Notes: a model not told the origin generated them from the letters alone. A stretch of 64,000 nucleotides of DNA from Bdellovibrionota bacterium (GCA_041750195.1 JBGSZX010000031.1:148669-212668), one strand, 5' to 3'. Shown: positions 32,034 through 56,731, counted from the first letter of the stretch. Numbers and translations are program-made.

Positions 32034-32054
32034 TAACAGAGATTGGTGATTGAT

Positions 32055-38698: not shown

Positions 38699-40054
38699 TT
38701 AGACGTCAACATCACAGGATATAGCTGTACATCCGGGGGGCAGGTCGCCATTCGGATCATCAATCGGAGGAGTGTCGGTTCCTGGATCTACCACTACCGG
38801 CACAGTTATGACTTCAACAGGCGGTTCAACCGGCGGCTCGATGATAGTTTTAAGGCAGTAATCAATTACGATTTCTGACTTGGCCACTCCTGGATTTTCA
38901 ATTCTGACACTATTGCTAGCTAAATCAAAACTGTGATTGCCCAACTCTCCGTCCACAAAGGCTTGAATGCTATCTTCTAAGACAGGTGAGTTAGATAGTT
39001 GGAAAGAATCAAAAACTTGCATTTGCTTGGCAACTTTTTCGCCAAAACTACTGAGACCTGAAGAATAGTCTTCTTGCCAAATGTCGATGAGACCACCGTT
39101 GGTTTTTTCGACAATCTCTGCATAGCCATATCCAAATTCATCTTCATTAGTTGTCATGGGTCTTCTGGAGATTGAGCTTTTTCCAGTTTTTGAATTGATA
39201 TATTTTGATGAGACGGGCAAATAGGCTTTTGGATCTTTATCAGTGTGGATAATAGCTCCAATAGAGACCGGTTGATCACCTTTGAGTGATCGCAAATGTT
39301 GGATCATGAAATCTGTACTGAGGTATTGAGAAGCGCCAGACGAAGTTTGAATGGTGCAGTTTTCATTTTTTGCAATATCCTCTAAAGTCTTTCCTTTATA
39401 GGTATTGTAATCCTTAGCTGGAGTGATACCATCTGGATACTGCGCACAAATTTCGTTTTCATCTGAAACAAATATAATTGCTAGGCCTGCGTCGGCTCTG
39501 AACATTCCGGCTGCTTTGTTTTTGGCGAGTTGGTCCCCTGAACTGGCTTGATAGAGCGAGTAAAAGGCTGTTTCACCACCATCAGAGAAGTAATCACTTG
39601 GAGTTTTTGTAAGACGGCTTTTTAACCCATTTCGAATTGACTCTAGTGAATGGATCTCAGAATCATAGACTGCAGGCGCCGTTGGACTGTTAACATATAG
39701 TTTTCCAGACCAACTTGATCGATTACCGTGGCTAAGAACAACACCAAGCCTATAGTCAAAATCTTCCGGAAGTTTTTCTACAAAATTATCTATTCTATTT
39801 GCGATTTGAATGCGTTCGTTCTCTATTGAACCTGAAGTATCCACGACAAATAGAACATCTAATTTAGATGTTAACACTTGGTCGGGCTGAGTATAGTGTT
39901 CGCGGTAACACGAATCTGCAATTGTTTCGACTCCGTCACCTTGTTTGATCCCATCTATAACATCAATGTTTGTGGGTATTTCGCATCCCGAAAATAATGC
40001 TAACCCGGCACAGTAACTGAGTAGTTTGTAGTTTGATTTCTTGTTAATCGGCAT
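38699..40054 (-). CDS. von Willebrand factor type A (vWA) domain lipoprotein
   Basis: Lipobox (LALFSGC). vWA MIDAS motif DVLFVVDTSGSIENER. A C-terminal Pro-rich repeat PPVEPPVEV. Confidence 0.7.
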   Translation of the reverse strand: MPINKKSNYKLLSYCAGLALFSGCEIPTNIDVIDGIKQGDGVETIADSCYREHYTQPDQVLTSKLDVLFVVDTSGSIENERIQIANRIDNFVEKLPEDFDYRLGVVLSHGNRSSWSGKLYVNSPTAPAVYDSEIHSLESIRNGLKSRLTKTPSDYFSDGGETAFYSLYQASSGDQLAKNKAAGMFRADAGLAIIFVSDENEICAQYPDGITPAKDYNTYKGKTLEDIAKNENCTIQTSSGASQYLSTDFMIQHLRSLKGDQPVSIGAIIHTDKDPKAYLPVSSKYINSKTGKSSISRRPMTTNEDEFGYGYAEIVEKTNGGLIDIWQEDYSSGLSSFGEKVAKQMQVFDSFQLSNSPVLEDSIQAFVDGELGNHSFDLASNSVRIENPGVAKSEIVIDYCLKTIIEPPVEPPVEVITVPVVVDPGTDTPPIDDPNGDLPPGCTAISCDVDV

Positions 40055-40326: not shown

Positions 40327-41220
40327 ATGGAAAAGCGTGGCGTCCCTTTTGCAAAATTAGAGGCCCTTGGAAATTCATATATTGTTGTTGATCCTAAGGA
40401 TAAAGATTTTTGGGGTGACGGTGAGGTGAAACTTTGGTGCTCCTCCGATTGGGGTTTGGGTTCCGACGGGATTTTATGGGGACCCTTTTACGATTCCGAT
40501 ATAGATCCACCTCGACTTGTGATTTTTAACAGTGATGGAAGTCAGGCTGAGAAAAGTGGAAATGGTCTAAGAATATTTGCTAGGTACCTTTGGGACAAAG
40601 GTCAAATTCATGAAAATCCGTTTACAATATATTCCGCAGCCGGACCCGTTGGCGTGAGGGTGTTTAAGGATTTCGCTATTGAGATCCAAATGGGGAAGGC
40701 AAATCTGTTGGGTGATCTTAAGGAAGACCTCACCGTATCTGTTCTTCGCCCCGATGGTGAAAAAGAAATTGTCTTAGATGTGACCAGGGTGAACGTTGGG
40801 AATCCGCATTGTTGCGTGTTCGGCGGTTTTGATTATGTGGATCATATCCGCCAATGGGGTGAGGCTATTGAGAATCACTTTATGTTTCCGAGGCGTACGA
40901 ATGTTCAGTTTGTGAAAGTGGAGTCCAGAACAGAGATTTTTTTTGAAGTATGGGAGCGAGGCTCTGGTTATACCTTGGCATCAGGCTCGAGTGCATGCGC
41001 TGTCGCTTTTAGTGCCTACAAGCGAGGTTTGGTTGATTCTTCTGTCACTCTAAAAATGCCTGGCGGAGAATTACACGTGCAAATCGAAAGCTCGGATAAC
41101 ATTATAATGCGAGGTAAGACGGATTGGATTTGTGAGGGGCAATGGCTTAAGCCTGAAGCTCCTAGAGCTCCAACAGAAAAAGATGAAGATGTGGAAGTCT
41201 TCGAAGGGGAAGACAAATGA
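40327..41220 (+). CDS. DapF-family (diaminopimelate epimerase-like) protein with Ser in place of the first catalytic Cys
   Basis: Aligns along its full length to DapF (LGNSYIVVD ~ [30 protein letters not shown] ~ [39 protein letters not shown] ~ GSGACAAAV). The first active-site Cys position reads Ser (KSGNG). It also carries an acidic C-terminal tail. Confidence 0.65.
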   Translation: [297 protein letters not shown]

Positions 41221-41642
41221 GTCAGGAAGTTTATTCAAAAGAGATTATAAATGCTTGGGAAAAGGCTAAAGAAGTTCGTCAAAGGGCTCATGCGCCTTAT
41301 TCCAAATATAAAGTGGGCGCGGCCTTAAAGATTAAAGAGTCCGCTGAATTGATCCTTGGCTGTAATGTTGAAAATGCTAGTTATGGGGCAACTGTTTGCG
41401 CTGAGCGAACCGCCTTTCAGGTGGCTGTGGCAAAATTCGGGAAGATTAGTCCCGAGTATATTATGTTGGTGACCCAAAGTGATCCGGCCGTTCCTCCATG
41501 CGCACTTTGTCTTCAGGTGTTTTCGGAGTTTTGTGGCCCCGAGTTTAGAATTTATATTGCGAATGAAAAAGAAATCCAAAGAGTGGCGAAGTTTGGTGAA
41601 CTTTTGGTTTCACCATTTGGGCCCAAAGATTTATTGAAATAA
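41217..41642 (+). CDS. cdd: cytidine deaminase
   Basis: Zinc-binding CAERTAF and PCALCLQV motifs. 141 aa, homotetrameric-type size. Overlaps the upstream stop. Confidence 0.85.
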   Translation: MSQEVYSKEIINAWEKAKEVRQRAHAPYSKYKVGAALKIKESAELILGCNVENASYGATVCAERTAFQVAVAKFGKISPEYIMLVTQSDPAVPPCALCLQVFSEFCGPEFRIYIANEKEIQRVAKFGELLVSPFGPKDLLK

Positions 41643-41677
41643 ACTTTTATAAATTTTTTATTAATTCGGCTTGATAA

Positions 41678-42157
41678 TTAACTTGGCTTAATAACAGAAG
41701 GAAGTGTTTTTATTTCGTTTCGAAAAAGAACATCAATTCTATTATCGCGTCGTTTTTGAACAACGCCTTTGCCAAAAACGTGATGAGTGAGCACTTCGCC
41801 TTCGTCGAAATATTTTTTTGGATCAAAATCTTTTACAACTTTGTCTCCCCAGTGTTTGACTCCATCAAACCAACTTTGCTCGAGTGTCGCAGAAGTTTTG
41901 ATGATTTGTGTCGAACTAGGTTTTCGACGGGTGACAGTTCGCTTTTTAGCGTCAGGTTTAGCTGTTTTTTCTTTTTTGTATTTATGAATAGTTTTAGAAA
42001 CTTTGCACTCAACTCGATCGACATAGCCGTCCTTGTCATGGTTGACCACAACATGCCAGGTGAAGGCTTTTTCTTTTGTGCTGTAACACCAAATATCTTG
42101 GGCTACAGGAGTGCGGTCAACATCAGAGTGGCTAGAGGAGTTTTTTTCACCGGTCAT
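41678..42157 (-). CDS. hypothetical protein with DUF3553-like C-terminal module
   Basis: C-terminus GEVLTHHVFGKGVVQKRRDNRIDVLFRNEIKTL resembles the HxxFGxGxV…V.F motif seen at UvrD/PcrA C-termini and in stand-alone DUF3553 proteins. Lys-rich middle. Confidence 0.35.
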   Translation of the reverse strand: MTGEKNSSSHSDVDRTPVAQDIWCYSTKEKAFTWHVVVNHDKDGYVDRVECKVSKTIHKYKKEKTAKPDAKKRTVTRRKPSSTQIIKTSATLEQSWFDGVKHWGDKVVKDFDPKKYFDEGEVLTHHVFGKGVVQKRRDNRIDVLFRNEIKTLPSVIKPS

Positions 42158-42161
42158 CGTT

Positions 42162-42695
42162 CTAGTAGTCTACTCGATCTTCCTTAAGTTTCCACAACTC
42201 AAAAACTTCGGTGTGGCCTTGCGTGACAACATGGAAGGTCGGAATTGACCTTTTTTCGATGGGCAAGGCGATTTCTTGGTAAATAAAGTCATCGTCAAAA
42301 CCCGCTAGCGCGGCATCTCTACGGGAGGCGGCAAAATAGAGGGCTTTGGGGCGTGCCCAGTAGATGGCGCCTAGGCACATGGGGCAGGGTTCACAGCTCG
42401 AAAAAATTTCGCAATCGTCTAATTGAAAGGTGGACAGTTTTTGACAGGCGTCACGAATGGCTTGAACCTCGGCATGTGCCGTGGGATCGTTGCGCGAGGT
42501 GACCGAATTAAAGCCGCTACCGACGATGGCGTCATTTTGTACAACAATGGCGCCAAAGGGGCCGCCTTGGCCATCTTGCATATGTTTTTTTGCAAGCTCT
42601 ACGGTCGCTTTTAAATATTTCTGGATTCTAGCCTCTGAATTCGACATCAAAGTATTGTGGCACAAATCGGGGAAGGCGGCAAAGCTAGGTCGCAA
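42162..42695 (-). CDS. CMP/dCMP-type zinc deaminase (TadA/GuaD-like nucleoside/nucleotide deaminase)
   Basis: HAEVQAIRDA and CEPCPMCLGAIYWAR motifs. Confidence 0.8.
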   Translation of the reverse strand: MRPSFAAFPDLCHNTLMSNSEARIQKYLKATVELAKKHMQDGQGGPFGAIVVQNDAIVGSGFNSVTSRNDPTAHAEVQAIRDACQKLSTFQLDDCEIFSSCEPCPMCLGAIYWARPKALYFAASRRDAALAGFDDDFIYQEIALPIEKRSIPTFHVVTQGHTEVFELWKLKEDRVDY

Positions 42696-43715
42696 TCATT
42701 TATGAGGGTTTGTGAGTCTCTCTAAGCTCTCATTTAAGGCTTGGATTTCTTCACGCCACCACTCCGGGCTCCCAAAATGGGGAAACAATTTAGGAAATGA
42801 GGGGTCGTCCCAGCGTCTGGCAATCCACGCATTATAATGAAGCATTCGTAGGGCTCTTAAGGCTTCAATGCTGTGAAGGGTTTCCTTTTCGAACGGATAG
42901 ATACTTTCGTAGGCCTCTAAAAATATTTCGCGCTGGCGCTCATCTTGAGCATCTCTTCCTCTTAATATCATCCATAAGTCTTGGACGGGGGGGCCGGTGA
43001 TGCAGTCGTCGAAATCGGTGAAGAAGGGACCTTGTTCATTCCATAGAACATTGCCGCAATGGCAATCTCCGTGGATGCTTATGTGTTTGAGGTTTGCAAT
43101 GGTGGCGCCGAGAAGCTCGGCAGATTCGTCTACCAATTGCAAATATCTTTCGGCCATCGGATTGTTGGCTAGGGGACTTTTGTCAAGAAAGTCGACGGAA
43201 TCCCAAAGCCAATTATCTACTGTAAAGGTTTTTCTAAATTTAAATTTTGTTTGAGAACCCACTATGTGAAGCCTTGCCAAATAGCGACCAAGAATTGTTA
43301 ACTCTTCGTTTTGTAGCTCATCCTTAAGGCGACCTCTAACTTTGGGAAAAATACAAAAATATATGTCTTCTGTGGTTTTTGAAATTTTTGAACAGGAAGT
43401 GTTGCCGCCCGGAAGATCAATAGCCTTTACGATAGGAACTTCGTAGTCATAGAGAGCAGTTAAAAAATTATGTTCTTCCTCTAGCTGTTCCAGGCTCCAA
43501 CGGCCTGGCCTATAAAATTTTGCAACATATTCTTCCCCATTTTCGAGGTCGAAGGACAAAACGCGATTTTCAATACTATTGAGAGCCATTAACCTGCCAG
43601 TGCAGCGGCGATTATCACCAGCGCTAACGCCAAGCGCAGCCTCAAGGCTGTTGAGGATATGGCTGTGATCTAGGGAATAGAAAGATTCTTTTAGGTTGCT
43701 CAACTCCCCTCGCAT
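42696..43715 (-). CDS. protein kinase-like (aminoglycoside phosphotransferase/RdoA-SrkA-type) fold protein
   Basis: Catalytic-loop-like IHGDCHCGNVLW and DFDD motifs. 339 aa, similar to YihE/RdoA-type stress kinases. Confidence 0.5.
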   Translation of the reverse strand: MRGELSNLKESFYSLDHSHILNSLEAALGVSAGDNRRCTGRLMALNSIENRVLSFDLENGEEYVAKFYRPGRWSLEQLEEEHNFLTALYDYEVPIVKAIDLPGGNTSCSKISKTTEDIYFCIFPKVRGRLKDELQNEELTILGRYLARLHIVGSQTKFKFRKTFTVDNWLWDSVDFLDKSPLANNPMAERYLQLVDESAELLGATIANLKHISIHGDCHCGNVLWNEQGPFFTDFDDCITGPPVQDLWMILRGRDAQDERQREIFLEAYESIYPFEKETLHSIEALRALRMLHYNAWIARRWDDPSFPKLFPHFGSPEWWREEIQALNESLERLTNPHK

Positions 43716-43864
43716 TCTAATCTACTTAGGGGCAGGAAGCACCGCGTGGAAGTCAAAATATAATGTTAATATATTAACATTATATCTTTTAAATGGCGAT
43801 ATTCCATGGCATGCTCATTTTTTGGCCTACTTTTAGGCTTTCGGTAATTAGGGAGATCCAACAA

Positions 43865-44488
43865 ATGAAAAATACAAAATTACTTGGACTGGGAATGCTT
43901 ATGCTTTTCGGGCTGGGCGTAGCTCAGGAAACTTTTGCAGCAAAAGCTCAGTTTAAAAAATATAATCTAGATGTCGCACATTCCGAGTTAGGATTTAAAG
44001 TTTCACATTTGGTAATTTCAAAAGTGCATGGAAGTTTCAAGAAATTCGAAGGGACATTCCAGGCTGATCCCGAGAAATTAGTCCTAAAAGATGTCAATGT
44101 TAACATAGATGTTGGCAGTATTGAGACCAACGAAAAGGACAGAGACGCGCACTTGGTTGGTCCTGATTTTTTTGATGCAAAAAAGTTTCCCAAAGCAGAA
44201 TTTAAAATTAAAGGACCCATCACCTTAAAACAAGGAAGCCCCATTGAAGCTAAGGGGACACTTAAAATAAAAGGGGTGAGCAAAAGCATTCCAGTAAATA
44301 TTACCTACAATGGATCTGCCGTGGACCCTTGGGGCAATAAAAAACATGGATTCGAAGTCACAGCCAGCGTGAATCGCAAAGAATTTGGAGTGAATTGGAA
44401 TAAAACTTTGGATCAAGGCGGTGTTATGGTCGGCGAAACTGTAGATATGTTAATTTCCGCGCAGGCTAGTCCTGACGCGGGCAAATAA
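43865..44488 (+). CDS. YceI-like periplasmic protein
   Basis: Signal peptide, then YNLDVAHSELGFKVSHLVISKVHGSFKKFEGTF...DVGSIETNEKDRDAHLVGPDFFDAKKFPKAEF, a pattern typical of the YceI polyisoprenoid-binding family. It ends 35 bp upstream of the precursor-peptide gene. Confidence 0.7.
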   Translation: MKNTKLLGLGMLMLFGLGVAQETFAAKAQFKKYNLDVAHSELGFKVSHLVISKVHGSFKKFEGTFQADPEKLVLKDVNVNIDVGSIETNEKDRDAHLVGPDFFDAKKFPKAEFKIKGPITLKQGSPIEAKGTLKIKGVSKSIPVNITYNGSAVDPWGNKKHGFEVTASVNRKEFGVNWNKTLDQGGVMVGETVDMLISAQASPDAGK

Positions 44489-44523
44489 GAAACAAGAAAG
44501 AAATAGGAGAAAAGGGCAAAAGT

Positions 44524-44841
44524 ATGAACAAAAATTTATTAACAGCAGCGGTTTTAGGTATTTCAATGGCGGCATGTGCTTCCGACGGAAAAGAAAAAAA
44601 TAACATGGCCGGTGGCGAAACAGCAACAGTTGAATGTCATGGCGTTACTTCTTGCAAAGGCACTGGCGACTGTGGTGGTGACGGGCACGCATGCGCTGGA
44701 AAAAATGCTTGCAAAGGGCATGGCTGGAAGAAAATGTCTGAGCATGATTGCACAGTTGCAAAAGAAGCAATGGCAGCTGCCGCAAAAGCAGCTGTTCCTG
44801 CAAAAAAAGCAGCGGTCAAAGCTAAAAAGGCAGTTAAATAA
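44524..44841 (+). CDS. Cys-rich Sec-signal precursor peptide, DUF2282/bufferin (BUF_6Cys)-like, with Lys/Ala-rich C-terminal tail
   Basis: MNKNLLTAAVLGISMAACA signal. Core ECHGVTSCKGTGDCGGDGHACAGKNACKGHGWKKMSEHDC has six Cys, an internally duplicated C-x-G-x-x-x-C-K/G-G unit and a conserved Trp. Tail AMAAAAKAAVPAKKAAVKAKKAVK. It sits immediately upstream of DUF692 and DUF2063 genes. Confidence 0.6.
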   Translation: MNKNLLTAAVLGISMAACASDGKEKNNMAGGETATVECHGVTSCKGTGDCGGDGHACAGKNACKGHGWKKMSEHDCTVAKEAMAAAAKAAVPAKKAAVKAKKAVK

Positions 44842-44849
44842 TAACTTAA

Positions 44850-45734
44850 ATGAGCACTCGTTCGAATTTTTATGGGGGGGTCGGTTTGCGACCTTCCCAT
44901 TATCAAGAATTTTTAAACCAGGCATCTAAGCCTTCCCTGAAATGGCTCGAAGTCATTTCGGAAAATTACTTTAGAACTCAAGGGCGTCCGATCAAGGTCT
45001 TGGAAAAATTAAGAGAGAATTATGAAGTTTCCTGTCATGGAGTATCTCTTTCAATTGCGTCTCCGGAAAAAATTGACCCTAGTTATGCTAAGGATATGAA
45101 AGAATTTTACAAACGCGTTGAGCCTTTTGTCGTGTCTGATCATATGTGCTGGACTGGATTTTCGGCACATAATGTTCACGATTTACTCCCATTCCCTTAT
45201 ACTCAGGAAAATCTAAAAAACGTTGTCGAAAAAATACAGTGGTATCAGGAATTTTTGGGCCGAGAATTGGCATTCGAAAATTTATCAGCTTACGTTCAGT
45301 TCCGTGAAAGCGATTTTACGGAAGAAGAGTTTTTTCAAGAAATTTTAAAACGCAGTGGAGCTAAAATGCTTCTTGATGTGAATAATATCTACGTGAATTC
45401 ACAAAATTTTGACTTTGATCCTCTTTTATATTTACAAAAAATTTCATTAGAAAACGTGGTTCAAATTCACTTGGCCGGTTATTCGGATATGGGAAATTTT
45501 TTGTTTGATACACATTCCAGGGCAGTGCAGCCAGGAGTGTGGGAGCTTTTTAAGAAGTTTGCAGCTCAGAAAAGTTTAAATTGCCCGGTGATGATTGAGT
45601 GGGATGACGACATTCCTAAGTTAAGCGTGGTCGTCGATGAATTGCATAAAGCTCAGGAGATCTGGGAAGGTGCAAAACAAGGCCAGGGAAAACTAACTTT
45701 GGAGCAAAAAATAGGCGAGTCTATAGATGGCTAA
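44850..45734 (+). CDS. DUF692 / MNIO (multinuclear non-heme iron oxidase, MbnB/TglH/BufB-like)
   Basis: Full-length family match: GGVGLRPSHY, LKWLEVISENY, CHGVSLSIAS, VSDHMCW, HDLLPFPYTQENL, LAFENLSAY, MLLDVNNIYVNSQNFDFDP, IHLAGYS, FDTHSRAV, VMIEWDDDIP. Starts 9 bp after the precursor stop. Confidence 0.85.
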   Translation: MSTRSNFYGGVGLRPSHYQEFLNQASKPSLKWLEVISENYFRTQGRPIKVLEKLRENYEVSCHGVSLSIASPEKIDPSYAKDMKEFYKRVEPFVVSDHMCWTGFSAHNVHDLLPFPYTQENLKNVVEKIQWYQEFLGRELAFENLSAYVQFRESDFTEEEFFQEILKRSGAKMLLDVNNIYVNSQNFDFDPLLYLQKISLENVVQIHLAGYSDMGNFLFDTHSRAVQPGVWELFKKFAAQKSLNCPVMIEWDDDIPKLSVVVDELHKAQEIWEGAKQGQGKLTLEQKIGESIDG

Positions 45735-46497
45735 GGTTAATTTTTTTGAAGATTTTCATAAATCTATTTTTTCTGACTTGGTTTATTTTCGCTGCATTCC
45801 AGGAGGCCAGCTAAGCGAATCCCAAAGTTACGGCGTCTATAGGACAGGTTATTATGCCAGAGCGACAGAAGCTTTGGGGGAAATTTATGAAACGACCTGG
45901 CGCTACTTGGGGGACGAAGATTTTTTTGCTCTCGTGGAAAAATATGTAAAGGCAAACCCCTCAATGAGCCCAAATCTGGCTGAGTGGAATTACGCTTTTA
46001 TGGATTTTTCAAAAGATTTATTCCACGATGATGAATTGCTTTCAGATCTTTTAACAATCGATGAGACTTATCATAATAAATTTCATTCTAGTGGCGAATA
46101 TTTAAAGACAATTGTTGACCCTTTGGATGAGGCGATGGCGCCCTTGTTGGGCCTTGTTGTTTGCGATGGCCAAATCCTGAAAGTTTCTTACAAAGCATTG
46201 TCGGTCTGGTGTGAATTGTTTTCAAAAGATATTTCTAAATTTGATTTGGAGGAAAATTATTCTTCTTTGCTGTTATTTAGAGCCCCTTCTTCGAGCGATC
46301 CGCATACTATGAATTTTCAAAGTTTAACTCTTGGGTCTGAAAAATTGCTGCGGATGCAAAAACATTTTTTTGGAGATTGGCGAAAAGTTTTGGAGAACTG
46401 GGAAGCTGTCAATGACTTTGGGCCTGAGTTAAATGAAAATGATTTGAGTTCTGCCGTTTCAGAGCTTCTTAGAAAAAAAGTTTTTCAAATTTTATAA
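45727..46497 (+). CDS. DUF2063-family MNIO partner protein (TglI/BufC-like)
   Basis: N-terminal DUF2063 pattern YGVYRTGYYARATEALGEIYETTWRYLGDEDFFALVEKYVKANPSMSPNLAEWNYAFMDF. Overlaps the MNIO gene by 8 bp. 256 aa. Confidence 0.75.
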   Translation: MAKVNFFEDFHKSIFSDLVYFRCIPGGQLSESQSYGVYRTGYYARATEALGEIYETTWRYLGDEDFFALVEKYVKANPSMSPNLAEWNYAFMDFSKDLFHDDELLSDLLTIDETYHNKFHSSGEYLKTIVDPLDEAMAPLLGLVVCDGQILKVSYKALSVWCELFSKDISKFDLEENYSSLLLFRAPSSSDPHTMNFQSLTLGSEKLLRMQKHFFGDWRKVLENWEAVNDFGPELNENDLSSAVSELLRKKVFQIL

Positions 46498-46511
46498 CGG
46501 AGACTCTGATA

Positions 46512-46958
46512 ATGGCACATAAAATTTCTAAAGAGGTTTCACTTTTACTTGAGATGCCTCACGTGAAAAATTGGAGACTTCTCATGGGAGCGTTTGACCG
46601 TGTACGACGTGAAATCGAAATTGAGTTGAGCGCCAATGGGCTCAGTATTTCCCGTTTTCAAGTTTTGTTTCTACTATACACCGAAGACTTTATGGCTCCC
46701 GTGGAAATTGCAAAGAGAATGCTTGTCACGAGAGCAAACATCTCGACGTTTTTAAAGCGTATGAAGACTGATGGATTAATTATAGAATGCCCAAACTCAA
46801 AGTCCTCTAAACGACCCTGTTTTAGGCTGACTCAGCAAGGTATCAAGGATTTTGAAAGCGTCTTTCCAAAACATGTTGATGTTTTAAAGAAATTTGTGCC
46901 TGCGTTTTCTCAAAAAACCAATTTAGAATTACTTGCCATAGTTGAGCGCCACCGTTGA
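46512..46958 (+). CDS. MarR-family transcriptional regulator
   Basis: Winged-helix region LSISRFQVLFLLYTEDFMAPVEIAKRMLVTRANISTFLKRMKTDGLIIEC..KRPCFRLTQQG. It is the last gene of the same co-directional run. Confidence 0.55.
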   Translation: MAHKISKEVSLLLEMPHVKNWRLLMGAFDRVRREIEIELSANGLSISRFQVLFLLYTEDFMAPVEIAKRMLVTRANISTFLKRMKTDGLIIECPNSKSSKRPCFRLTQQGIKDFESVFPKHVDVLKKFVPAFSQKTNLELLAIVERHR

Positions 46959-48152
46959 GTGAAATGACATTCCTTCAATAAAACAATCTTCGTCAACGTC
47001 AAATCGAGGGTCGTGGCACATATGGCAAATGCCTTTTTCGTCATTCCAGATTCCCAAAAACCCAAAACAAGCAGGAATTTTTTGGGAGTAGTAACCGAAA
47101 TCTTCACCTCCCATAGTGGGTGATGCGGGCATAATAATTTTATCTTTTTCAAAAATATCTTGAGCGGCCCTATAGGCAACCTCTAGAGCTTTTTGGTGAT
47201 TGAAGGTGACAGGATAGCCTTCAAGATATTCTATTTCGGCATTGGCCCCCATGGCCTCACAAGTTTTTTGTACTAATTCTTCGAAACGCCTGCGTAAAAG
47301 CTTTTGGACCTTTGGGTTGAAGCTTCTTATGGTTCCATGAAGAAATGCTTTTTCTGGGATCACATTATGAGTGCTTCCAGCATGAAATTCAGTAATGGAA
47401 AGAACGGCTTGATCGTTGGGATTTACATTTCGAGAGACAATGCTCTGAAGGTGGTTGACAATTTGCGCTCCAATAAGAATGGGGTCAACACAGAGATGGG
47501 GTTCGGCAGCATGACCGCCTTTCCCAGTTATAAATATTTTAAATTCATCCGGTTGCGCCATGGCGGGTCCATCGCAAAGCCCAAAAGTTTTGCTTTTAAG
47601 ATCGGGCCACACGTGCAGACCAAAAATCATGTCTACATTTTCCAGGACACCATCTGCGATCATTCCTGGAGCACCTCCTGGAAGATTTTCTTCGTTTGGT
47701 TGAAAGATAAATCTTACGTTGCAACGCAAGTGATCTCTGAGATCACTAAGAATCTTGGCTCCACCAATGAGCATAGCGGTATGGGCGTCGTGACCACACA
47801 TATGGGCGGCACCGGGAACCGTAGATTTGTATTCACAGCTGCCTTCTTCTTGCATGGGGAGGGCATCCATATCGGCACGCAGTGCTATTATGGGAAATTT
47901 AGGGTCAACAATCAAATCAGCAACGACACCGGTTTTTCCAACATGCTCTCTAACGGTGAGGCCTAATTTTCGACATTCATCGGCAGCAATTTTTGCCGTT
48001 CTTTGAACCTCAAATCCGATTTCCGGATTTTTGTGAATATCTCTGCGAATATCGATGATATTTTGGTGGTGAACCTTGGCTAATTCTAAAATTTTTTGCT
48101 TCAACTTAGACATCTTTTGTCTAAGTCTAGAGCTGCTTTGGGCGCTTTCCAA
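46929..48152 (-). CDS. M20D-family amidohydrolase (N-acyl-amino acid / hippurate hydrolase-like)
   Basis: HMCGHDAHTAMLIGGAKIL, the metal-binding Asp/Glu/His pattern and overall 400-aa M20D architecture. Confidence 0.8.
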   Translation of the reverse strand: MESAQSSSRLRQKMSKLKQKILELAKVHHQNIIDIRRDIHKNPEIGFEVQRTAKIAADECRKLGLTVREHVGKTGVVADLIVDPKFPIIALRADMDALPMQEEGSCEYKSTVPGAAHMCGHDAHTAMLIGGAKILSDLRDHLRCNVRFIFQPNEENLPGGAPGMIADGVLENVDMIFGLHVWPDLKSKTFGLCDGPAMAQPDEFKIFITGKGGHAAEPHLCVDPILIGAQIVNHLQSIVSRNVNPNDQAVLSITEFHAGSTHNVIPEKAFLHGTIRSFNPKVQKLLRRRFEELVQKTCEAMGANAEIEYLEGYPVTFNHQKALEVAYRAAQDIFEKDKIIMPASPTMGGEDFGYYSQKIPACFGFLGIWNDEKGICHMCHDPRFDVDEDCFIEGMSFHSTVALNYGK

Positions 48153-48219
48153 GGGCTATTCATTTAAGAATTATTTGAGAGGGTCGCCATAACTTCCCGA
48201 ATCGGTTAAGCTCAGTACC

Positions 48220-49167
48220 GTGCGTCATGTTTTCTTCTGTTTGCTTATGATTTTTCAGTTTGCACATTCGACGGAAGTTTATGCAAATGGTGCTGATATT
48301 CCTAAAGATCCCAAATTGCAGATTTTTGATGAGTCGAGCACGTCCGTTTCTATTCATGACTGTAAACTATTTGTACGTCATTTGAATTCGAACAAAAGCA
48401 CCAATGAAAATGCACCAAGAGTTATTGCAATCAATGGCGTCCCGGTGAGTTCATGGGTATATCGGGATTTTGCTATTCGAATAGCAAAAATGGGATGGTC
48501 CATCGATTTACTGGATTTGCCCGGCACAGGACATTCAACGCTAGAGGCTCCCACAAGATGGGGCAAGCAACGTGCTTGTATTGAACAATATTTGAAGGCC
48601 GTTCCTCAAAATTATATTTTAATTCTTCATGATATTTCGGGCCCGATAGTTTTACCGTTTATTGATGAGCTTCCTAAGCTAAGGGGCTTATTTGTTTTAA
48701 ATTCGGTGATCAAAACTTATGGCTTCAAGCCAATTGCCCCGATGAGTACACTTAGAAAACATTTTTTAGGAGATCTCACGATACTTTTTATGGGACGTGA
48801 AAAGTACAAAAATGAAATTAAAAAAATTGGATTAAAAAAAGATGTCGATGACTATTGGCTTGATCAAATACTGACCGACATGAGAGAAGGTGACTCCATA
48901 GGAAGGCTCACCACCATCATGCGAAGCTTCGATAGTTCCAAGTTGCTTGATTCAAAGATTGCCAAAAACATAGCGAGCTTTGAAGGGCCTAAATTTGCTG
49001 TTTGGGGACTGGCCGATCCATCTCTAGGAAATTTATCTTATTATGCAAAAGGGGTTTTTGGTGAAACTAACTATCTAGAAATTCCGGATGCCAAGCATTT
49101 CTTTATGATGGATTTTTCGAGCGAATTGGCAAAAATCTTTGACCAAGTTTTTACAAAATTGAAGTGA
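48220..49167 (+). CDS. alpha/beta-hydrolase fold protein, secreted
   Basis: Signal peptide. ~300 aa with lipase/haloalkane-dehalogenase-like alpha/beta arrangement (…LHDISGP…, C-terminal DAKHFF). Confidence 0.5.
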   Translation: MRHVFFCLLMIFQFAHSTEVYANGADIPKDPKLQIFDESSTSVSIHDCKLFVRHLNSNKSTNENAPRVIAINGVPVSSWVYRDFAIRIAKMGWSIDLLDLPGTGHSTLEAPTRWGKQRACIEQYLKAVPQNYILILHDISGPIVLPFIDELPKLRGLFVLNSVIKTYGFKPIAPMSTLRKHFLGDLTILFMGREKYKNEIKKIGLKKDVDDYWLDQILTDMREGDSIGRLTTIMRSFDSSKLLDSKIAKNIASFEGPKFAVWGLADPSLGNLSYYAKGVFGETNYLEIPDAKHFFMMDFSSELAKIFDQVFTKLK

Positions 49168-49346
49168 GTTGTGATTTTTGAGCGAATCGATTGGAAGGCA
49201 GCCTAAGTTTTCATTGCGCGAGAATGCCAAGATTGCCGCGGCTCTTGTTAAAGCCGTGAATCCCTCTTAATTAACAACATGCTACGCCAAAATTAATCGT
49301 TTCTTAACAAGTGTGGCTAGGACATTTGGGTATACTTGGTAAGCGC

Positions 49347-50672
49347 ATGAAAAGCTTCTTATCTTTGCTATGTTTTTGGCTAGTATGCGCAAGCTTTATC
49401 GGCGCAAGTTATGTGGCACATGCTGCGCCCGAAACTGGGAAATTTTATAATGTTGTCACCAAACTTTCGGGGGCTGTTCCGGCAGATTCGCTGACAACTG
49501 TGAAAGTGAATCTACTTCCAGGTGATCAGCTTAAGTTTGTTGGGTATGGGCCCACCTGGGGTAGTAATAAAACTTTAAAGGTTGAGGTTATTTCTGGGCA
49601 GGGTAGGGGAAATTTGTACTATATTTCTGGGGCGGCGGCCGTCAATGGAACGCTTGTGGCGGCAAAAGCATTGGATAGTAATTTTTCGGGCGCAGCAGCC
49701 GGAGCTCCCTCACAAAATTCTGCTCATAGTACGGACTCAAACGCTAATACTTCCAATAATAGCTCGGCCGTTAACTCCTCCGCAAAACCACAAGGAATCA
49801 CGGCTGCTAAAAATGGTGAGTTGATGAAAACTAGGTCGTACAAAGACGCACAGATGAAATTTTTTGATTTGCAATACAGGTTTAAGAGGGCAATGGCGGC
49901 TAAGGGGCTAATCATTCCTCTAAAAGATGCTACCCCAGGTCTAAGGGAAGCTGTCTTTGAAGTTATGAACAAGTTTAATCCACAGGAACAGGCGATGTTA
50001 GCAATGGTCGGAACCAGTTGGGCCGAAAGTCGCGAATCCTCTGGAAACAGGAGAGATTCGCATGACCCAATTGATAAAGCCAATAAAATATTTACCATGC
50101 ATATGCTGAAGATGAGGAGTGAAGATACTAAGAAAAAATATCTTATCGCTAAATCATATAGAGACAAGGGGACAGCGCTCGGCGTTGTTGGAGCTGTAGC
50201 GCCGGAGGGTGCATTTTCATCCTGGAATTCTGGCTCATTAAATTTTAAGAATATGGTGAATGCTCTTGGGGGATCTGTTCAGGCGGGGTCTAGGGTGTCT
50301 CTTCAGGCGACTGTGAATGCCTATCATGACTATTCAAATTTGGACGTGCAATTGAACGGGTTTTCTGGCCCGCAGGGTGAGCCGGCCCACCATATGATGA
50401 ACCGGACAGAGATTAGAAATCCGGCAGGGACAGTTTCCTGGTCGATCGAGCATGTTATGGGAAAGACATACAAACCAAAGGAACTTGAGCAAGCGATTGA
50501 TGTTGGTGTAAGAGTAAAGGGCTTTTCGATTTCTGTGAGAGATAAAAATGCTAAACTTATAAAAGTTTCGTCGCGAGATATTGATCATTGGCCCGTCTAT
50601 ATGGCATACCAAAAGGCAGGCACGAATATGGCGAATTGGAAAAAACTTAAGCAAGGGCAGGGGCGCTGGTAG
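49347..50672 (+). CDS. hypothetical secreted protein
   Basis: Signal peptide from ATG 49347 (MKSFLSLLCFWLVCASFIGASYVAHA). An Asn/Ser/Ala-rich linker then a globular C-terminal domain. No family recognised. Confidence 0.4.
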   Translation: MKSFLSLLCFWLVCASFIGASYVAHAAPETGKFYNVVTKLSGAVPADSLTTVKVNLLPGDQLKFVGYGPTWGSNKTLKVEVISGQGRGNLYYISGAAAVNGTLVAAKALDSNFSGAAAGAPSQNSAHSTDSNANTSNNSSAVNSSAKPQGITAAKNGELMKTRSYKDAQMKFFDLQYRFKRAMAAKGLIIPLKDATPGLREAVFEVMNKFNPQEQAMLAMVGTSWAESRESSGNRRDSHDPIDKANKIFTMHMLKMRSEDTKKKYLIAKSYRDKGTALGVVGAVAPEGAFSSWNSGSLNFKNMVNALGGSVQAGSRVSLQATVNAYHDYSNLDVQLNGFSGPQGEPAHHMMNRTEIRNPAGTVSWSIEHVMGKTYKPKELEQAIDVGVRVKGFSISVRDKNAKLIKVSSRDIDHWPVYMAYQKAGTNMANWKKLKQGQGRW

Positions 50673-50674
50673 AT

Positions 50675-51226
50675 ATGATTAAAAATTTATTAGCTTTGTT
50701 TGTAATTTTAATTTCGGGCTGTGCAAGTGCCGACAGCCAGAATGCACAAGAAGTACCTGTGGCAAAGGAGCAATCCGCACAAAAGCAATCCGCACAAAAG
50801 CAAACAGTACAAAAGCTTGCAGCTCCGGCATCAAAAGCTCTTAGCGATATCAATGGCTGGGAAATTAGGAGTGGTGACTCAGGTTTGCTTGCTAAGCACT
50901 CAGCTCTTGAAAATGTGGAATTTGAACTAGAAATGTATAGCGGGTTTCCAAAAATCAAAGAATGGAAGATGTTAGCTAATCCGAATTACTATTTGCTCGT
51001 TTATGAAGCTGGTGGAATGGGGACAAGTCACACGGTCATCGTTTGGAAAGCAAAGGTTATAAATATCATTACAAAGACCGAGCTTTTAGACGAGATTTGG
51101 CAATACAAAGATTTAGAGGGAAAACCTGACAAGCAAGTTACTGATCCCGAATGGACCTTCACAAAATCGAAGATATTTATTAAGAGCTCAAGCTCTTCAA
51201 AACCCGATATTTACAGTCTCAATTGA
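50675..51226 (+). CDS. hypothetical lipoprotein
   Basis: Lipobox (LISGCAS). Contains the tandem QSAQKQSAQKQTVQK repeat, then a ~120-aa domain. Starts 3 bp after the upstream stop. Confidence 0.4.
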   Translation: MIKNLLALFVILISGCASADSQNAQEVPVAKEQSAQKQSAQKQTVQKLAAPASKALSDINGWEIRSGDSGLLAKHSALENVEFELEMYSGFPKIKEWKMLANPNYYLLVYEAGGMGTSHTVIVWKAKVINIITKTELLDEIWQYKDLEGKPDKQVTDPEWTFTKSKIFIKSSSSSKPDIYSLN

Positions 51227-56227: not shown

Positions 56228-56731
56228 TTATCTAACTGAGCTTAGCGGAGCCTTAATGACCAATTCAAATTCGTCTTCGACTCCGACTCCTAGGTAGCTG
56301 GCTTCTGGAAGTTTAAAATCAGACATCTTTAATTTAAAACTACCCACTAAATTTTTTCCTTCAGTTTTGTAGACTCCATGAATCTTTTTTTTCATGTTTT
56401 TTACCTTTAGGATGCCTGTAAACTTTCCTTTGGTGGCAATGGCTTTAAGGAGGATTACGTTTGGAAATTTATTAGCTTCGAGTCTTTTATAAATGTGTTG
56501 ATCTCTAAGCTCAATTCCACTCTTAAGGGAGGTGATAGGCACATTTATGTTTTCGGCCATGTAGCCGCCTTTGTATTTTTTAACAGATCCCAATATGGTG
56601 TTGGATTTTACGCTAAAATCACCCGCAGGATTTAACTCGAAATTAAGCTTTAACTCCTGAGTGTTTCCATTGTAGGCAAATAGGCAAATTGTGGCAAAAA
56701 CTGTGGATTTTAATGTAAATTTTAAATGCAT
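56228..56731 (-). CDS. YceI-like protein (second paralog)
   Basis: Signal peptide, then ...NVPITSLKSGIELRDQHIYKRLEANKFPNVIL... and ~165-aa length, typical of the YceI family. Confidence 0.55.
   Translation of the reverse strand: MHLKFTLKSTVFATICLFAYNGNTQELKLNFELNPAGDFSVKSNTILGSVKKYKGGYMAENINVPITSLKSGIELRDQHIYKRLEANKFPNVILLKAIATKGKFTGILKVKNMKKKIHGVYKTEGKNLVGSFKLKMSDFKLPEASYLGVGVEDEFELVIKAPLSSVR

What the first reader, a model, noticed from the sequence alone, without database searches (positions are those of the whole stretch)
44524..46958. Compact MNIO (DUF692) + DUF2063 + Cys-rich signal-peptide precursor operon: a bufferin-like RiPP system
Seen in sequence. Four co-directional genes are tightly packed, with a 9-bp gap then an 8-bp overlap. 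The first is a 105-aa Sec-signal peptide with a six-Cys core. The second is a textbook DUF692/MNIO enzyme (GGVGLRPSHY…HGVSLSIAS…DHMCW…LLPFPYT…LLDVNNIYVNS…IHLAGY…IEWDDDIP). The third is a DUF2063 partner, and the fourth is a MarR regulator. Established knowledge: DUF692 enzymes are multinuclear non-heme iron oxidases (MNIOs) that oxidatively rearrange Cys residues of RiPP precursors. Known examples are MbnB in methanobactin, TglH in 3-thiaglutamate, ChrH, and BufB in the copper-binding thiooxazole bufferins. TglH and BufB use DUF2063 partners. Sec-exported DUF2282 / BUF_6/12Cys precursors are the bufferin substrates. Inference: this locus makes a periplasmic, Cys-derived heterocycle-bearing metal-binding peptide. 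It lacks the DoxX (BufD) gene and the ECF-sigma context of the studied Caulobacter operons, and has a MarR regulator and a YceI-like gene next door instead, so the product and its metal specificity are probably uncharacterised.
Basis: partly seen in the sequence, partly recalled or inferred. Interest (0 to 1): 0.85.

Follow-up and report, generated by a model that had tools for sequence, protein, structure and literature searches.

The report
Bufferin-2 copper-peptide operon with YceI
This is a real but fairly ordinary member of the recently described "bufferin 2" family, in which an iron enzyme converts cysteines of a small exported peptide into copper-binding rings. Its local peculiarities are a co-transcribed YceI gene and its position behind the promoter of a resident MarR regulator.

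Summary
The peptide matches NCBIfam BufA2 (58.0 bits; cutoff 60; E 8e-16) and keeps the six core Cys. The enzyme passes the MNIO_BufB equivalog (320.7 > 310) and keeps all nine MbnB iron ligands. The partner carries DUF2063 and is 256 aa.

The claimed differences are not differences. The studied Caulobacter buf2ABC operon also lacks DoxX, Buf2 clusters are reported to lack sigma/anti-sigma genes, and about 16% of Buf2 peptides have lipoprotein signals, as this one does.

New here:
- YceI is probably the first gene of the operon. A yceI gene lies next to the precursor in 7 of 57 metagenome loci and in three other, independently retrieved relatives.
- A syntenic relative (L012) has marR directly behind the same conserved palindrome, with no yceI-bufABC. 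The 2.7-kb module therefore sits between a resident marR promoter/operator and marR.

Verdict: a new member of a known kind. Interest is modest (0.3).

The parts
43755..43788 (.). 34-nt palindrome (AAAATATAATGTTAATA/TATTAACATTATATCTT). Its core, GTTAATATATTAACATT (43765-43781), is the candidate MarR operator.
   Evidence: Inverted repeat I1, 17-nt arms, 94% complementary. The 16-mer core TTAATRTATWAACATT is invariant upstream of the marR homologues in L012 (4460-4475) and L014 (165-180), within otherwise diverged intergenic DNA, and the preceding G is shared too, giving the 17-mer GTTAATRTATWAACATT. The 16-mer occurs at only this one site in the 64-kb window (two overlapping hits, 0.26 expected by chance). 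Its function as an operator is inferred.
43774..43803 (+). Sigma-70-like promoter candidate (TTAACA, 18-nt spacer, GATATT). Its -35 box lies inside the palindrome.
   Evidence: 9 of 12 matches. The scan found no more sites than in shuffled sequence, so this is weak on its own. The position is homologous to the region upstream of marR in L012.
43865..44488 (+). yceI: a periplasmic YceI-like lipocalin-fold protein and the probable first gene of the operon. The longest ORF starts at 43793. The ATG at 43865 follows an AGGGAG Shine-Dalgarno sequence and gives a normal signal peptide, MKNTKLLGLGMLMLFGLGVAQETFA.
   Evidence: Pfam PF04264, 1.9e-43. The sequence is read. The gap to bufA is 35 nt with no promoter or terminator hit in it. 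A YceI gene directly adjoins the precursor in L007, L015-17, L020-21, L023, L027, L032, L033, L036, L050 and L060.
44524..44841 (+). bufA: Buf2-type (BUF_6/12Cys) bufferin precursor. It has a signal peptide with a lipobox (Cys18), a six-Cys core (C38, 44, 50, 57, 63, 76) and a 28-aa Ala/Lys-rich C-terminal tail (residues 78-105).
   Evidence: NCBIfam NF050166, 58.0 bits, E 8e-16. C38, 44, 50, 57 and 63 are invariant among 29 homologues. The library holds 743 cluster representatives at E<=1e-3. Lipobox patterns are met. The AF2 model gives strands 35-39 and 68-72 and a helix 73-104.
44850..45734 (+). bufB: multinuclear non-heme iron oxidase (MNIO), the bufferin maturase.
   Evidence: NCBIfam MNIO_BufB, 320.7 bits against a cutoff of 310. 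Pfam PF05114, 3.1e-95. H63, H98, E143, D176, N179, H207, D220, H222 and E250 align with MbnB ligands H54, H90, E133, D163, N166, H192, D208, H210 and E239 and are invariant in 18 homologues.
45727..46497 (+). bufC: DUF2063 partner protein (PME-type 1), which presumably presents the precursor to BufB.
   Evidence: Pfam PF09836, 2.4e-14, on residues 8-94. At 256 aa it falls in the 250-260-aa PME-type 1 size class. An 8-nt overlap with bufB suggests translational coupling. The C-terminal RRE-like domain was not verified.
46512..46958 (+). marR: MarR-family winged-helix regulator. It is a resident gene of this chromosomal neighbourhood, now the last gene behind the module.
   Evidence: Pfam MarR/MarR_2. 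It is 59% identical to P0029, which lies in a syntenic contig without the buf module. Its 3' end overlaps the convergent M20 peptidase gene (46929-48152, - strand) by 30 nt.

Best explanation
The locus is a five-gene operon, yceI-bufA-bufB-bufC-marR, that makes a Buf2-type bufferin (a 'captophorin').

Proposed pathway, by analogy with Caulobacter Buf2:
1. In the cytoplasm, the MNIO BufB and its DUF2063 partner BufC oxidise the four central cysteines of BufA (C44, C50, C57, C63) to 5-thiooxazoles. Each conversion is a 4-electron oxidation (-4 Da).
2. The peptide is exported by Sec.
3. C38 and C76 form a disulfide.
4. The signal peptide ends in a lipobox, so the mature peptide is probably diacylglycerol-modified at Cys18 and tethered to a membrane. 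There it chelates Cu(I)/Cu(II) in the periplasm.

The periplasmic YceI protein is co-expressed as an accessory; its role is unknown. Transcription probably starts at the promoter that drives marR alone in a relative. The conserved palindrome over its -35 box would let MarR repress the whole operon, itself included.

Shown here: the gene content, the family matches, the conserved Cys and Fe ligands, the recurrence of YceI, and the synteny and indel.

Inferred: the chemistry, copper as the ligand, lipidation, co-transcription and MarR control.
For: Family assignment:
- Family scores.
- All 29 aligned precursor homologues hit the BufA2 model.
- The core Cys are conserved.
- All nine iron ligands are conserved.
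- A-B-C order recurs in L001-L011 and most of the 80 metagenome loci.

Chemistry, from the literature:
- In Buf2, Cys I and VI are unmodified and likely disulfide-bonded, while the central Cys carry -4.03 Da. buf2ABC has no DoxX. Both bufferin operons are copper-induced and protective (PMC11626156).
- 5-thiooxazole is the general product of MNIO-PME1 pairs (PMC13097082).

Lipoprotein signal:
- PROSITE-type and G+LPP-type lipobox patterns are met.
- About 16% of Buf2 peptides are predicted lipoproteins.
- Relatives L004, L005, L008, L011, L028, L069 and L074, P0023 and P0035 also have a signal-peptide Cys.

YceI:
- It lies next to the precursor in 7 of 57 metagenome loci with enough flank, and in L007, L015 and L020.
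- These loci fall in at least five BufB lineages.

Regulation:
- The window aligns with L012 through the palindrome (43788 = L012 4483) and again only from inside marR (46656 = L012 4681). That leaves about 2.67 kb extra in the window.
- The motif is invariant upstream of marR in L012 and L014.
Against: - The precursor is 2 bits under the curated BufA2 cutoff. It lacks the near-invariant 'GGxLT' C-terminal segment, which is replaced by an Ala/Lys tail.
- The C-terminal RRE-like domain of BufC could not be confirmed. The AF2 model has pLDDT 42.9, and a family profile finds no PDB relative.
- No copper-resistance gene, DoxX or ECF sigma gene was seen among the 36 Pfam-scanned window ORFs or with ad hoc HMMs. 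The link to copper therefore rests on homology only.
- The lipobox has Met at -3. Cleavage by signal peptidase I at SMA/A is also possible, and no SignalP or LipoP run was available.
- A weak promoter-like site lies just before marR (46484-46513), so marR may also be transcribed on its own.
- Whether the module was inserted here or deleted in L012 cannot be decided from two or three genomes.
Confidence: 0.8

Rival explanations
1. The enzymology is the same, but the biological role differs. The YceI-linked Buf2 peptides would handle another stress, such as mercury or other soft metals, or quinone, lipid or redox stress. YceI, an isoprenoid/quinone-binding lipocalin, would be the functional counterpart of DoxX.
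For: - YceI recurs next to Buf2 precursors.
- In L036 the bufB-bufC-bufA-yceI block adjoins merR-merT-merP-like genes.
- The literature notes MerC-bufferin fusions, and one Legionella bufferin cluster with YceI plus a cytochrome b.
- No copper gene lies near the window's cluster.
Against: - All characterised MNIO-PME1 products are copper-associated.
- L020 carries both YceI and DoxX, so the two are not simple substitutes.
- The ligand of YceI in this setting is unknown.
Confidence: 0.15
2. MarR is only a neighbour. The yceI-bufABC module has its own regulation, and its position next to marR has no regulatory meaning.
For: - MarR lies next to none of about 100 other Buf2 loci.
- marR exists without the module in L012/L013 and L014.
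- A promoter-like site lies immediately upstream of marR.
Against: - The only conserved intergenic element, the palindrome with its downstream CATGGCA stretch, lies upstream of yceI, exactly where it lies upstream of marR in the relatives.
- All five genes are co-directional, with gaps of 35, 8, -8 and 14 nt. The only terminator-like match on the + strand lies inside the marR coding sequence (46729-46745), and the scan found fewer terminator-like sites than in shuffles.
Confidence: 0.25
3. The peptide is a soluble periplasmic bufferin released by signal peptidase I, and Cys18 is removed with, or left next to, the cleavage site. It is not a lipoprotein.
For: - Met at lipobox position -3 is atypical, and the strict [LVI][ASTVI][GAS]C pattern is not met.
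- An S-M-A/A site for signal peptidase I is available.
- The studied Caulobacter bufferins have ordinary Sec signal peptides.
Against: - The broader PROSITE-like and G+LPP-like patterns are met.
- An extra Cys at the end of the h-region recurs in relatives with canonical lipoboxes, such as LAAGC in L004 and L028 and ISGC in L074.
- The literature predicts lipidated bufferins.
Confidence: 0.3
4. The cluster is a decaying or non-functional copy.
For: - The precursor scores under the curated cutoff.
- BufC is highly diverged. Its nearest relative found is 37% identical over about half its length.
Against: - All ORFs are intact.
- Every catalytic ligand and every core Cys is retained.
- The genes are tightly coupled.
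Confidence: 0.04

Closest known systems
Bufferin 2 of Caulobacter vibrioides (buf2ABC, CCNA_02999-03001; BUF_6/12Cys family; NCBIfam NF050166/NF050167)
   Same: - A three-gene core of precursor, MNIO and DUF2063 partner, with no DoxX.
- A Sec signal peptide.
- A six-Cys core with the same spacing logic.
- The MNIO passes the BufB equivalog cutoff.
- Expected product: four 5-thiooxazoles and one disulfide.
   Different: - A lipobox signal peptide in place of a plain one.
- The conserved C-terminal GGxLT segment is replaced by a 28-aa Ala/Lys helix.
- A yceI gene lies in front.
- No SigF-type control; probably a MarR-controlled promoter instead.
- At most 57% identity to any precursor representative.
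Bufferin 1 (DUF2282, bufABCD) of Caulobacter vibrioides
   Same: Same enzyme pair, same 5-thiooxazole chemistry, and a role in periplasmic copper chelation.
   Different: Buf1 has four Cys (two modified), a DoxX gene, and sigF/nrsF nearby. The window peptide gives no Pfam DUF2282 hit at E<=0.1.
Oxazolin (HvfABC), fontiphorin, gonophorin and bulbicupramide: the other 'captophorins'
   Same: An MNIO plus PME-type 1 pair that installs 5-thiooxazoles on an exported Cys-rich peptide. 3BWW, the structure of an MNIO of this PME1-linked group, is the nearest PDB structure (PMC13097082).
   Different: Those precursors carry EGKCG or other repeat motifs. The HvfB model scores far below its cutoff here (221.5 against 360).
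Methanobactin MbnABC
   Same: Same MNIO fold, and all nine iron ligands are conserved.
   Different: The partner is different (MbnC), the product is an oxazolone/thioamide, and the peptide is a secreted chalkophore with a leader peptide. The MbnB model scores 58 against a cutoff of 325.
Lipidated MNIO RiPPs (DybA / chryseobasin-like; PMC13056109)
   Same: The precursor signal peptide ends in a lipobox, so a RiPP enters the lipoprotein pathway. That paper also predicts lipidated bufferins.
   Different: The enzymes are ChrH-type and form a macrocycle and a hydantoin. They have no DUF2063 partner. Lipidation of a bufferin has not been shown experimentally in any paper read here.

Membership tests
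Buf2 / BUF_6/12Cys bufferin precursor (NCBIfam NF050166 BufA2) | Score at or above the curated equivalog cutoff of the BufA2 model | tested here: inconclusive
   58.0 bits against a cutoff of 60, E 8e-16. The match covers model positions 7-75 of 79. The shortfall comes from the replaced C-terminal segment. All 29 aligned homologues hit the same model.
Buf2 / BUF_6/12Cys bufferin precursor (NCBIfam NF050166 BufA2) | Six conserved Cys in the core | tested here: met
   C38, C44, C50, C57 and C63 are invariant columns. C76 aligns with Cys VI in nearly all of the 29 sequences.
Buf2 / BUF_6/12Cys bufferin precursor (NCBIfam NF050166 BufA2) | N-terminal Sec-type signal peptide | tested here: met
   The n-region is MNK, the h-region is residues 4-17, and the lipobox is SMAAC. 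Pattern tests were run. No SignalP or LipoP run was available.
Buf2 / BUF_6/12Cys bufferin precursor (NCBIfam NF050166 BufA2) | Encoded directly upstream of MNIO and DUF2063 genes | tested here: met
   The same order is seen in related loci.
Buf2 / BUF_6/12Cys bufferin precursor (NCBIfam NF050166 BufA2) | Central Cys converted to 5-thiooxazoles (-4 Da each), and Cu(I)/Cu(II) binding | not testable with these tools
   This needs LC-MS, UV, NMR and metal titration.
MNIO bufferin maturase BufB (NCBIfam NF050167; Pfam PF05114) | Score above the curated cutoff | tested here: met
   320.7 bits against 310, and PF05114 at 3.1e-95.
MNIO bufferin maturase BufB (NCBIfam NF050167; Pfam PF05114) | Complete set of iron ligands (MbnB H54, H90, E133, D163, N166, H192, D208, H210, E239) | tested here: met
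   H63, H98, E143, D176, N179, H207, D220, H222 and E250 align with them (ligand list from PMC9060507). All are invariant in 18 homologues.
PME-type 1 partner (DUF2063 + RRE-fold; BufC/HvfC/NGO1945) | N-terminal DUF2063 domain | tested here: met
   PF09836, 2.4e-14, residues 8-94. All 23 aligned homologues hit it.
PME-type 1 partner (DUF2063 + RRE-fold; BufC/HvfC/NGO1945) | C-terminal RRE-type domain; total length about 250-260 aa | tested here: inconclusive
   The length of 256 aa fits. The AF2 model is too poor to use (pLDDT 42.9), and the profile search of the PDB found nothing, not even 3DEE.
Four-gene bufferin 'core' including DoxX (BufD) | DoxX gene in the cluster | tested here: not met
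   The ad hoc HMM found no DoxX in the 64-kb window. DoxX is not defining: Caulobacter buf2 lacks it and Buf1 does not need it.
YceI-like periplasmic lipocalin (PF04264) | Pfam domain above the gathering score, with a signal peptide | tested here: met
   148.9 bits against 23.7. The signal peptide starts from the ATG at 43865. The protein is below the E. coli YceI equivalog cutoff (127.9 against 232).
MarR-family autoregulator | Winged-helix MarR domain, and a palindromic operator overlapping its own promoter | tested here: inconclusive
   The domain is met. A conserved palindrome lies upstream of three homologous loci. Binding was not tested.

The most novel reading that the evidence does not exclude
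YceI is an unrecognised accessory component of a sub-class of Buf2 bufferin systems, present in about one locus in eight. One possible role is supplying or sequestering an isoprenoid quinone or lipid for redox handling of the membrane-tethered thiooxazole peptide. In this genome the yceI-bufABC module was captured behind a resident MarR-controlled promoter. A metallophore operon would then answer to a MarR-type signal rather than to an ECF sigma factor.
Probability: 0.3. Interest if true: 0.45.

Novelty: new member of a known kind. Interest (0 to 1): 0.3.

Why it matters
Bufferins (captophorins) are a recently recognised and very widespread bacterial defence against copper, so one more cluster adds little by itself. 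Four things may be useful.
1. It is a concrete example of a precursor that a curated model misses by 2 bits, so automatic annotation would probably call it 'hypothetical'.
2. YceI is linked to Buf2 precursors far more often than chance across several lineages. The main texts of the papers read here do not discuss this.
3. A natural 'with and without' pair of syntenic loci shows a RiPP module sitting between a regulator's operator and the regulator gene. This gives a clean, testable case of regulatory capture.
4. It is a candidate lipid-anchored bufferin with a cationic helical tail, which could be used to test whether such peptides act at the membrane surface.

Tried and rejected
- **Source look-up.** Exact look-up of BufB and BufA in the contig index found nothing. 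Cluster look-up shows that all four proteins are singletons at 90% identity, on one unnamed NCBI contig of 229,529 nt. The nearest BufB relatives are Bdellovibrionales, Myxococcales and Leptospira sequences at 43-52% identity.
- **BufC structure.** AF2 with a two-sequence alignment gave pLDDT 42.9, so no fold search was run. A 23-sequence family profile against the PDB gave only chance hits. Word-index homologue search found a single relative.
- **BufA structure.** The model has mean pLDDT 62.8 and a poorly defined core, so it was used only for the helical tail.
- **Is the Ala/Lys tail unique?** No. Other Buf2 representatives carry A/P/K/E-rich C-terminal extensions (P0086, P0094, P0118, P0128). 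The tail's amphipathicity is modest (muH 0.38; 87 of 5000 shuffles reach it).
- **Horizontal transfer by composition.** The module has GC 0.397 against 0.425 for the window, with similar GC3. This is not informative.
- **Structured RNA.** No Rfam hit at E<=1 in 42.5-48.5 kb.
- **Other copies in the window.** Ad hoc HMMs found no DoxX, ECF sigma or second buf gene.
- **MarR as a dedicated bufferin regulator.** Rejected on synteny.
- **Cysteines of MarR as a sensor.** C93 and C103 are conserved in L012 but absent in L014, so this is not pursued.
Full report
**Observation.**
The ORF list shows four co-directional + strand genes at exactly the reported coordinates:
- 44524-44841 (105 aa)
- 44850-45734 (294 aa)
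- 45727-46497 (256 aa)
- 46512-46958 (148 aa)

The small protein has seven Cys. C18 closes a signal peptide (MNKNLLTAAVLGISMAAC). C38, C44, C50, C57, C63 and C76 form the core. A fifth co-directional gene, yceI, ends 35 nt upstream of the small ORF. Its most plausible start is the ATG at 43865, behind an AGGGAG Shine-Dalgarno sequence, which gives a standard signal peptide.

**Family tests.**

| Protein | Model | Result |
|---|---|---|
| Enzyme | Pfam PF05114 (MbnB_TglH_ChrH) | 3.1e-95 |
| Enzyme | NCBIfam MNIO_BufB equivalog | 320.7 bits; cutoff 310 (passes) |
| Enzyme | HvfB / MbnB / ChrH / ApyH models | far below their cutoffs |
| Partner | Pfam PF09836 (DUF2063) | 2.4e-14, residues 8-94 |
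| Last gene | MarR / MarR_2 | about 1e-7 |
| Upstream gene | PF04264 (YceI) | 1.9e-43 |
| Small protein | any Pfam model | no hit at E<=0.1 |
| Small protein | NCBIfam Cu_RiPP_BufA2 | 58.0 bits; cutoff 60; E 8e-16; model positions 7-75 of 79 |

- Homologues of the small protein share the motif C-x-G-x-N-x-C-K-G-x-G-x-C-G-G-x-G-H-x-C-A-G-K-N-x-C-K-G.
- In a 29-sequence alignment C38, 44, 50, 57 and 63 are invariant, and all 29 members hit the BufA2 model.
- A filter-free search of 1.84 billion cluster representatives found 743 relatives at E<=1e-3, none above 57% identity.
- The small protein is therefore a somewhat diverged member of a large family.
- The 2-bit shortfall is explained by its C-terminus. 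The near-invariant 'GGxLT' segment after Cys VI is replaced by VAKEAMAAAAKAAVPAKKAAVKAKKAVK.

**Catalytic competence of the MNIO.**
The MbnB iron ligands are His54, His90, Glu133, Asp163, Asn166, His192, Asp208, His210 and Glu239 (PMC9060507). HMMER alignments to PDB 7TCR map them to H63, H98, E143, D176, N179, H207, D220, H222 and E250 of the window protein. One alignment used the single sequence and one used an 18-sequence profile that reaches His54. All nine positions are invariant in the 18 homologues. The nearest solved structure is 3BWW, an MNIO that PMC13097082 lists among those encoded next to a PME1 partner.

**What the literature already says.**
- Bufferins were defined in Caulobacter (PMC11626156). 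The buf2 operon (buf2ABC) lacks a DoxX gene, and DoxX is dispensable for Buf1.
- In Buf2, Cys I and VI stay unmodified and probably form a disulfide. The central Cys carry -4.03 Da each, giving a mature product at -18 Da.
- Both bufferin operons are copper-induced and protective.
- The 2025 landscape paper (PMC12452194) reports thousands of Buf1 and Buf2 members. It reports sigma/anti-sigma genes in Buf1 but not in Buf2 clusters. It also reports that about 16% of Buf2 peptides have lipoprotein signal peptides.
- PMC13097082 unifies the MNIO plus DUF2063-partner systems as 5-thiooxazole 'captophorins'.
- PMC13056109 predicts lipidated bufferins.

**Signal peptide.**
The N-terminus satisfies a PROSITE-type and a G+LPP-type lipobox pattern. 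I wrote both from memory and ran them. It does not satisfy the strictest [LVI][ASTVI][GAS]C form, because Met is at -3. Relatives with canonical lipoboxes exist: LAAGC in L004 and L028, ISGC in L074, and SSSC in P0035, the closest representative. Lipidation is likely but unproven, and cleavage by signal peptidase I remains a rival.

**C-terminal tail.**
AF2 with 25 homologues gives a mean pLDDT of 62.8. It predicts two short strands and one long helix (residues 73-104, pLDDT about 80) that continues the helix carrying Cys VI. The tail has pI 10.5 and is modestly amphipathic. It is not unique, because other Buf2 representatives carry A/P/K/E-rich extensions. I treat it as a family-typical variable appendage, possibly contacting a membrane or the cell envelope. 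That last point is inference.

**Related loci.**
Eleven genome loci and 80 metagenome loci were ORF-called and scanned with ad hoc HMMs. The order precursor-MNIO-DUF2063 is the rule. DoxX is present in a minority of loci. An ECF sigma gene flanks several of them; in Leptospira it comes with an NrsF homologue.

A YceI gene directly adjoins the precursor in:
- 7 of the 57 metagenome loci that have enough flank (L023, L027, L032, L033, L036, L050, L060);
- genome locus L007;
- the loci of the close precursor homologues P0003 (L015-L017) and P0012 (L020-L021).

In most of these the order is yceI then bufA, with gaps from -4 to about 60 nt. An NJ tree of BufB places these loci in at least five lineages. 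Most genomes carry only a few YceI genes (my own knowledge), so this frequency is far above chance adjacency. In the papers read, YceI appears only once, in a supplementary legend for a Legionella cluster. In L036 the buf-yceI block adjoins merR, merT and an HMA-domain (MerP-like) gene. This keeps the metal-stress theme but hints at metals other than copper.

**MarR and the promoter.**
Only two relatives of the MarR protein were found. P0029 (59% identity) lies on contig L012, whose gene order matches the window: DapF, cytidine deaminase, a 159-aa protein, a deaminase, an APH-type kinase (- strand), marR (+), an M20 peptidase (-) and an alpha/beta hydrolase. Amino-acid identities are 59-79%. 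L012 has no yceI-bufABC.

- blastn aligns window 42739-43788 with L012 3430-4483.
- It resumes only at window 46656 = L012 4681, inside marR.
- The window therefore holds about 2.67 kb extra.
- The left alignment runs through a 34-nt palindrome (43755-43788).
- The palindrome core GTTAATRTATWAACATT is invariant upstream of marR in L012 and in a third, non-syntenic locus, L014.
- The core is unique in the window.
- A sigma-70-like site has its -35 box inside the palindrome.

The simplest reading is that the palindrome is the MarR autoregulatory operator and that the yceI-bufABC module lies between it and marR. All five genes would then form one MarR-controlled operon. Two of the three marR loci lack the module, which favours insertion here over deletion there, but the direction is not proven. 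Base composition gives no signal. A weak promoter-like site just before marR means marR could also be transcribed separately.

**Surroundings.**
Pfam scans of 36 ORFs between 32 and 64 kb show housekeeping and miscellaneous genes. These include MnmA, CoaBC, DapF, deaminases, glutamate dehydrogenase, an MFS transporter, a PilZ protein and HrpB. There is also a second, divergent YceI-like gene at 56228-56731. No copper or other metal-resistance genes were seen. No Rfam family matches around the locus.

**Mechanism, with the status of each step.**
1. BufC binds the precursor and presents it to BufB. This is inferred from family membership, and the RRE domain of BufC is unverified.
2. BufB, with a complete iron site (shown), oxidises C44, C50, C57 and C63 to 5-thiooxazoles. 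This is inferred from Caulobacter Buf2.
3. The peptide is exported by Sec and probably lipidated at C18 (pattern-based inference).
4. C38 and C76 form a disulfide (inferred).
5. The peptide chelates copper in the periplasm (inferred from the family).
6. YceI is co-expressed as an accessory. The linkage is shown; the role is unknown.
7. MarR represses the operon through the palindrome. The comparative evidence is shown; binding is inferred.

**Verdict.**
The finding is real and correctly identified in kind, but it is a new member of a known, curated and very large family. Its modest points of interest are the YceI linkage, the regulatory capture by a resident MarR locus, and the likely lipid anchoring. 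Interest 0.3.

Noticed in passing
window 43755-43788: A perfect-looking 34-nt palindrome lies in the divergent intergenic region between the APH-type kinase gene and yceI. Its core is conserved upstream of marR homologues in two other contigs (L012 4459-4475, L014 164-180).
   Followed up: yes
window 56228-56731 (-): A second, divergent YceI-like gene (PF04264, 7.3e-9; 25% identical to the operon's YceI) lies about 10 kb downstream, next to a PilZ-domain gene.
   Followed up: partly
window 40327-49167 vs L012 1037-7291: The window is collinear with metagenome contig L012 (ENA ERZ23491123) at 59-79% amino-acid identity, apart from the yceI-bufABC block. Collinearity ends after the alpha/beta hydrolase: the window's 453-aa ORF (49311-50672) has no counterpart, and L012 has a PilZ-like 412-aa protein there.
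   Followed up: partly
window 49311-50672, 50675-51226, 38699-40054, 32043-33794, 56941-57933, 41678-42157: Several sizeable ORFs have no Pfam hit at E<=0.001. Two of them, adjacent to each other, look secreted or lipoprotein-like: 453 aa with a Ser/Asn/Ala-rich linker, and 183 aa with a 'SGCASAD' lipobox and QKQSA repeats.
   Followed up: no
window 46929-46958: The 3' ends of marR (+) and the convergent M20/amidohydrolase gene (-) overlap by 30 nt if the listed TTG start and the stops are used. No terminator-like site lies between them.
   Followed up: no
L036 911-5407: A high-GC metagenome locus carries bufB-bufC-bufA-yceI next to divergent merR, merT and an HMA-domain (MerP-like) gene. This suggests that some YceI-linked Buf2 systems belong to mercury or heavy-metal islands.
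   Followed up: partly
L005 4393-5971, L008 594-1533, L011 4383-5971 (Leptospira): Six-Cys Buf2-type lipoprotein precursors in Leptospira lie directly downstream of a divergent ECF sigma gene; in L005 both that gene and an adjacent NrsF homologue were confirmed by Pfam. The published survey found such regulators only in Buf1 clusters.
   Followed up: partly
L014 633-1499 (-): The third marR homologue (51% identity) is convergent with a cation-diffusion-facilitator gene (Cation_efflux + ZT_dimer). This is a faint hint that this MarR subfamily may be metal-related.
   Followed up: no
L022, L077, L085, L087, L091, L093: These loci have tandem precursor genes, or duplicated whole bufABC units (L093). 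MNIO-DUF2063 fusion proteins occur in L009, L010, L020, L027, L078, L094 and L100.
   Followed up: no
L018/L019 4442-5264: A precursor homologue (P0005) lies next to a DoxX gene with no MNIO nearby, an 'orphan' arrangement. It sits on a contig of a Candidatus Limnocylindrales MAG.
   Followed up: no
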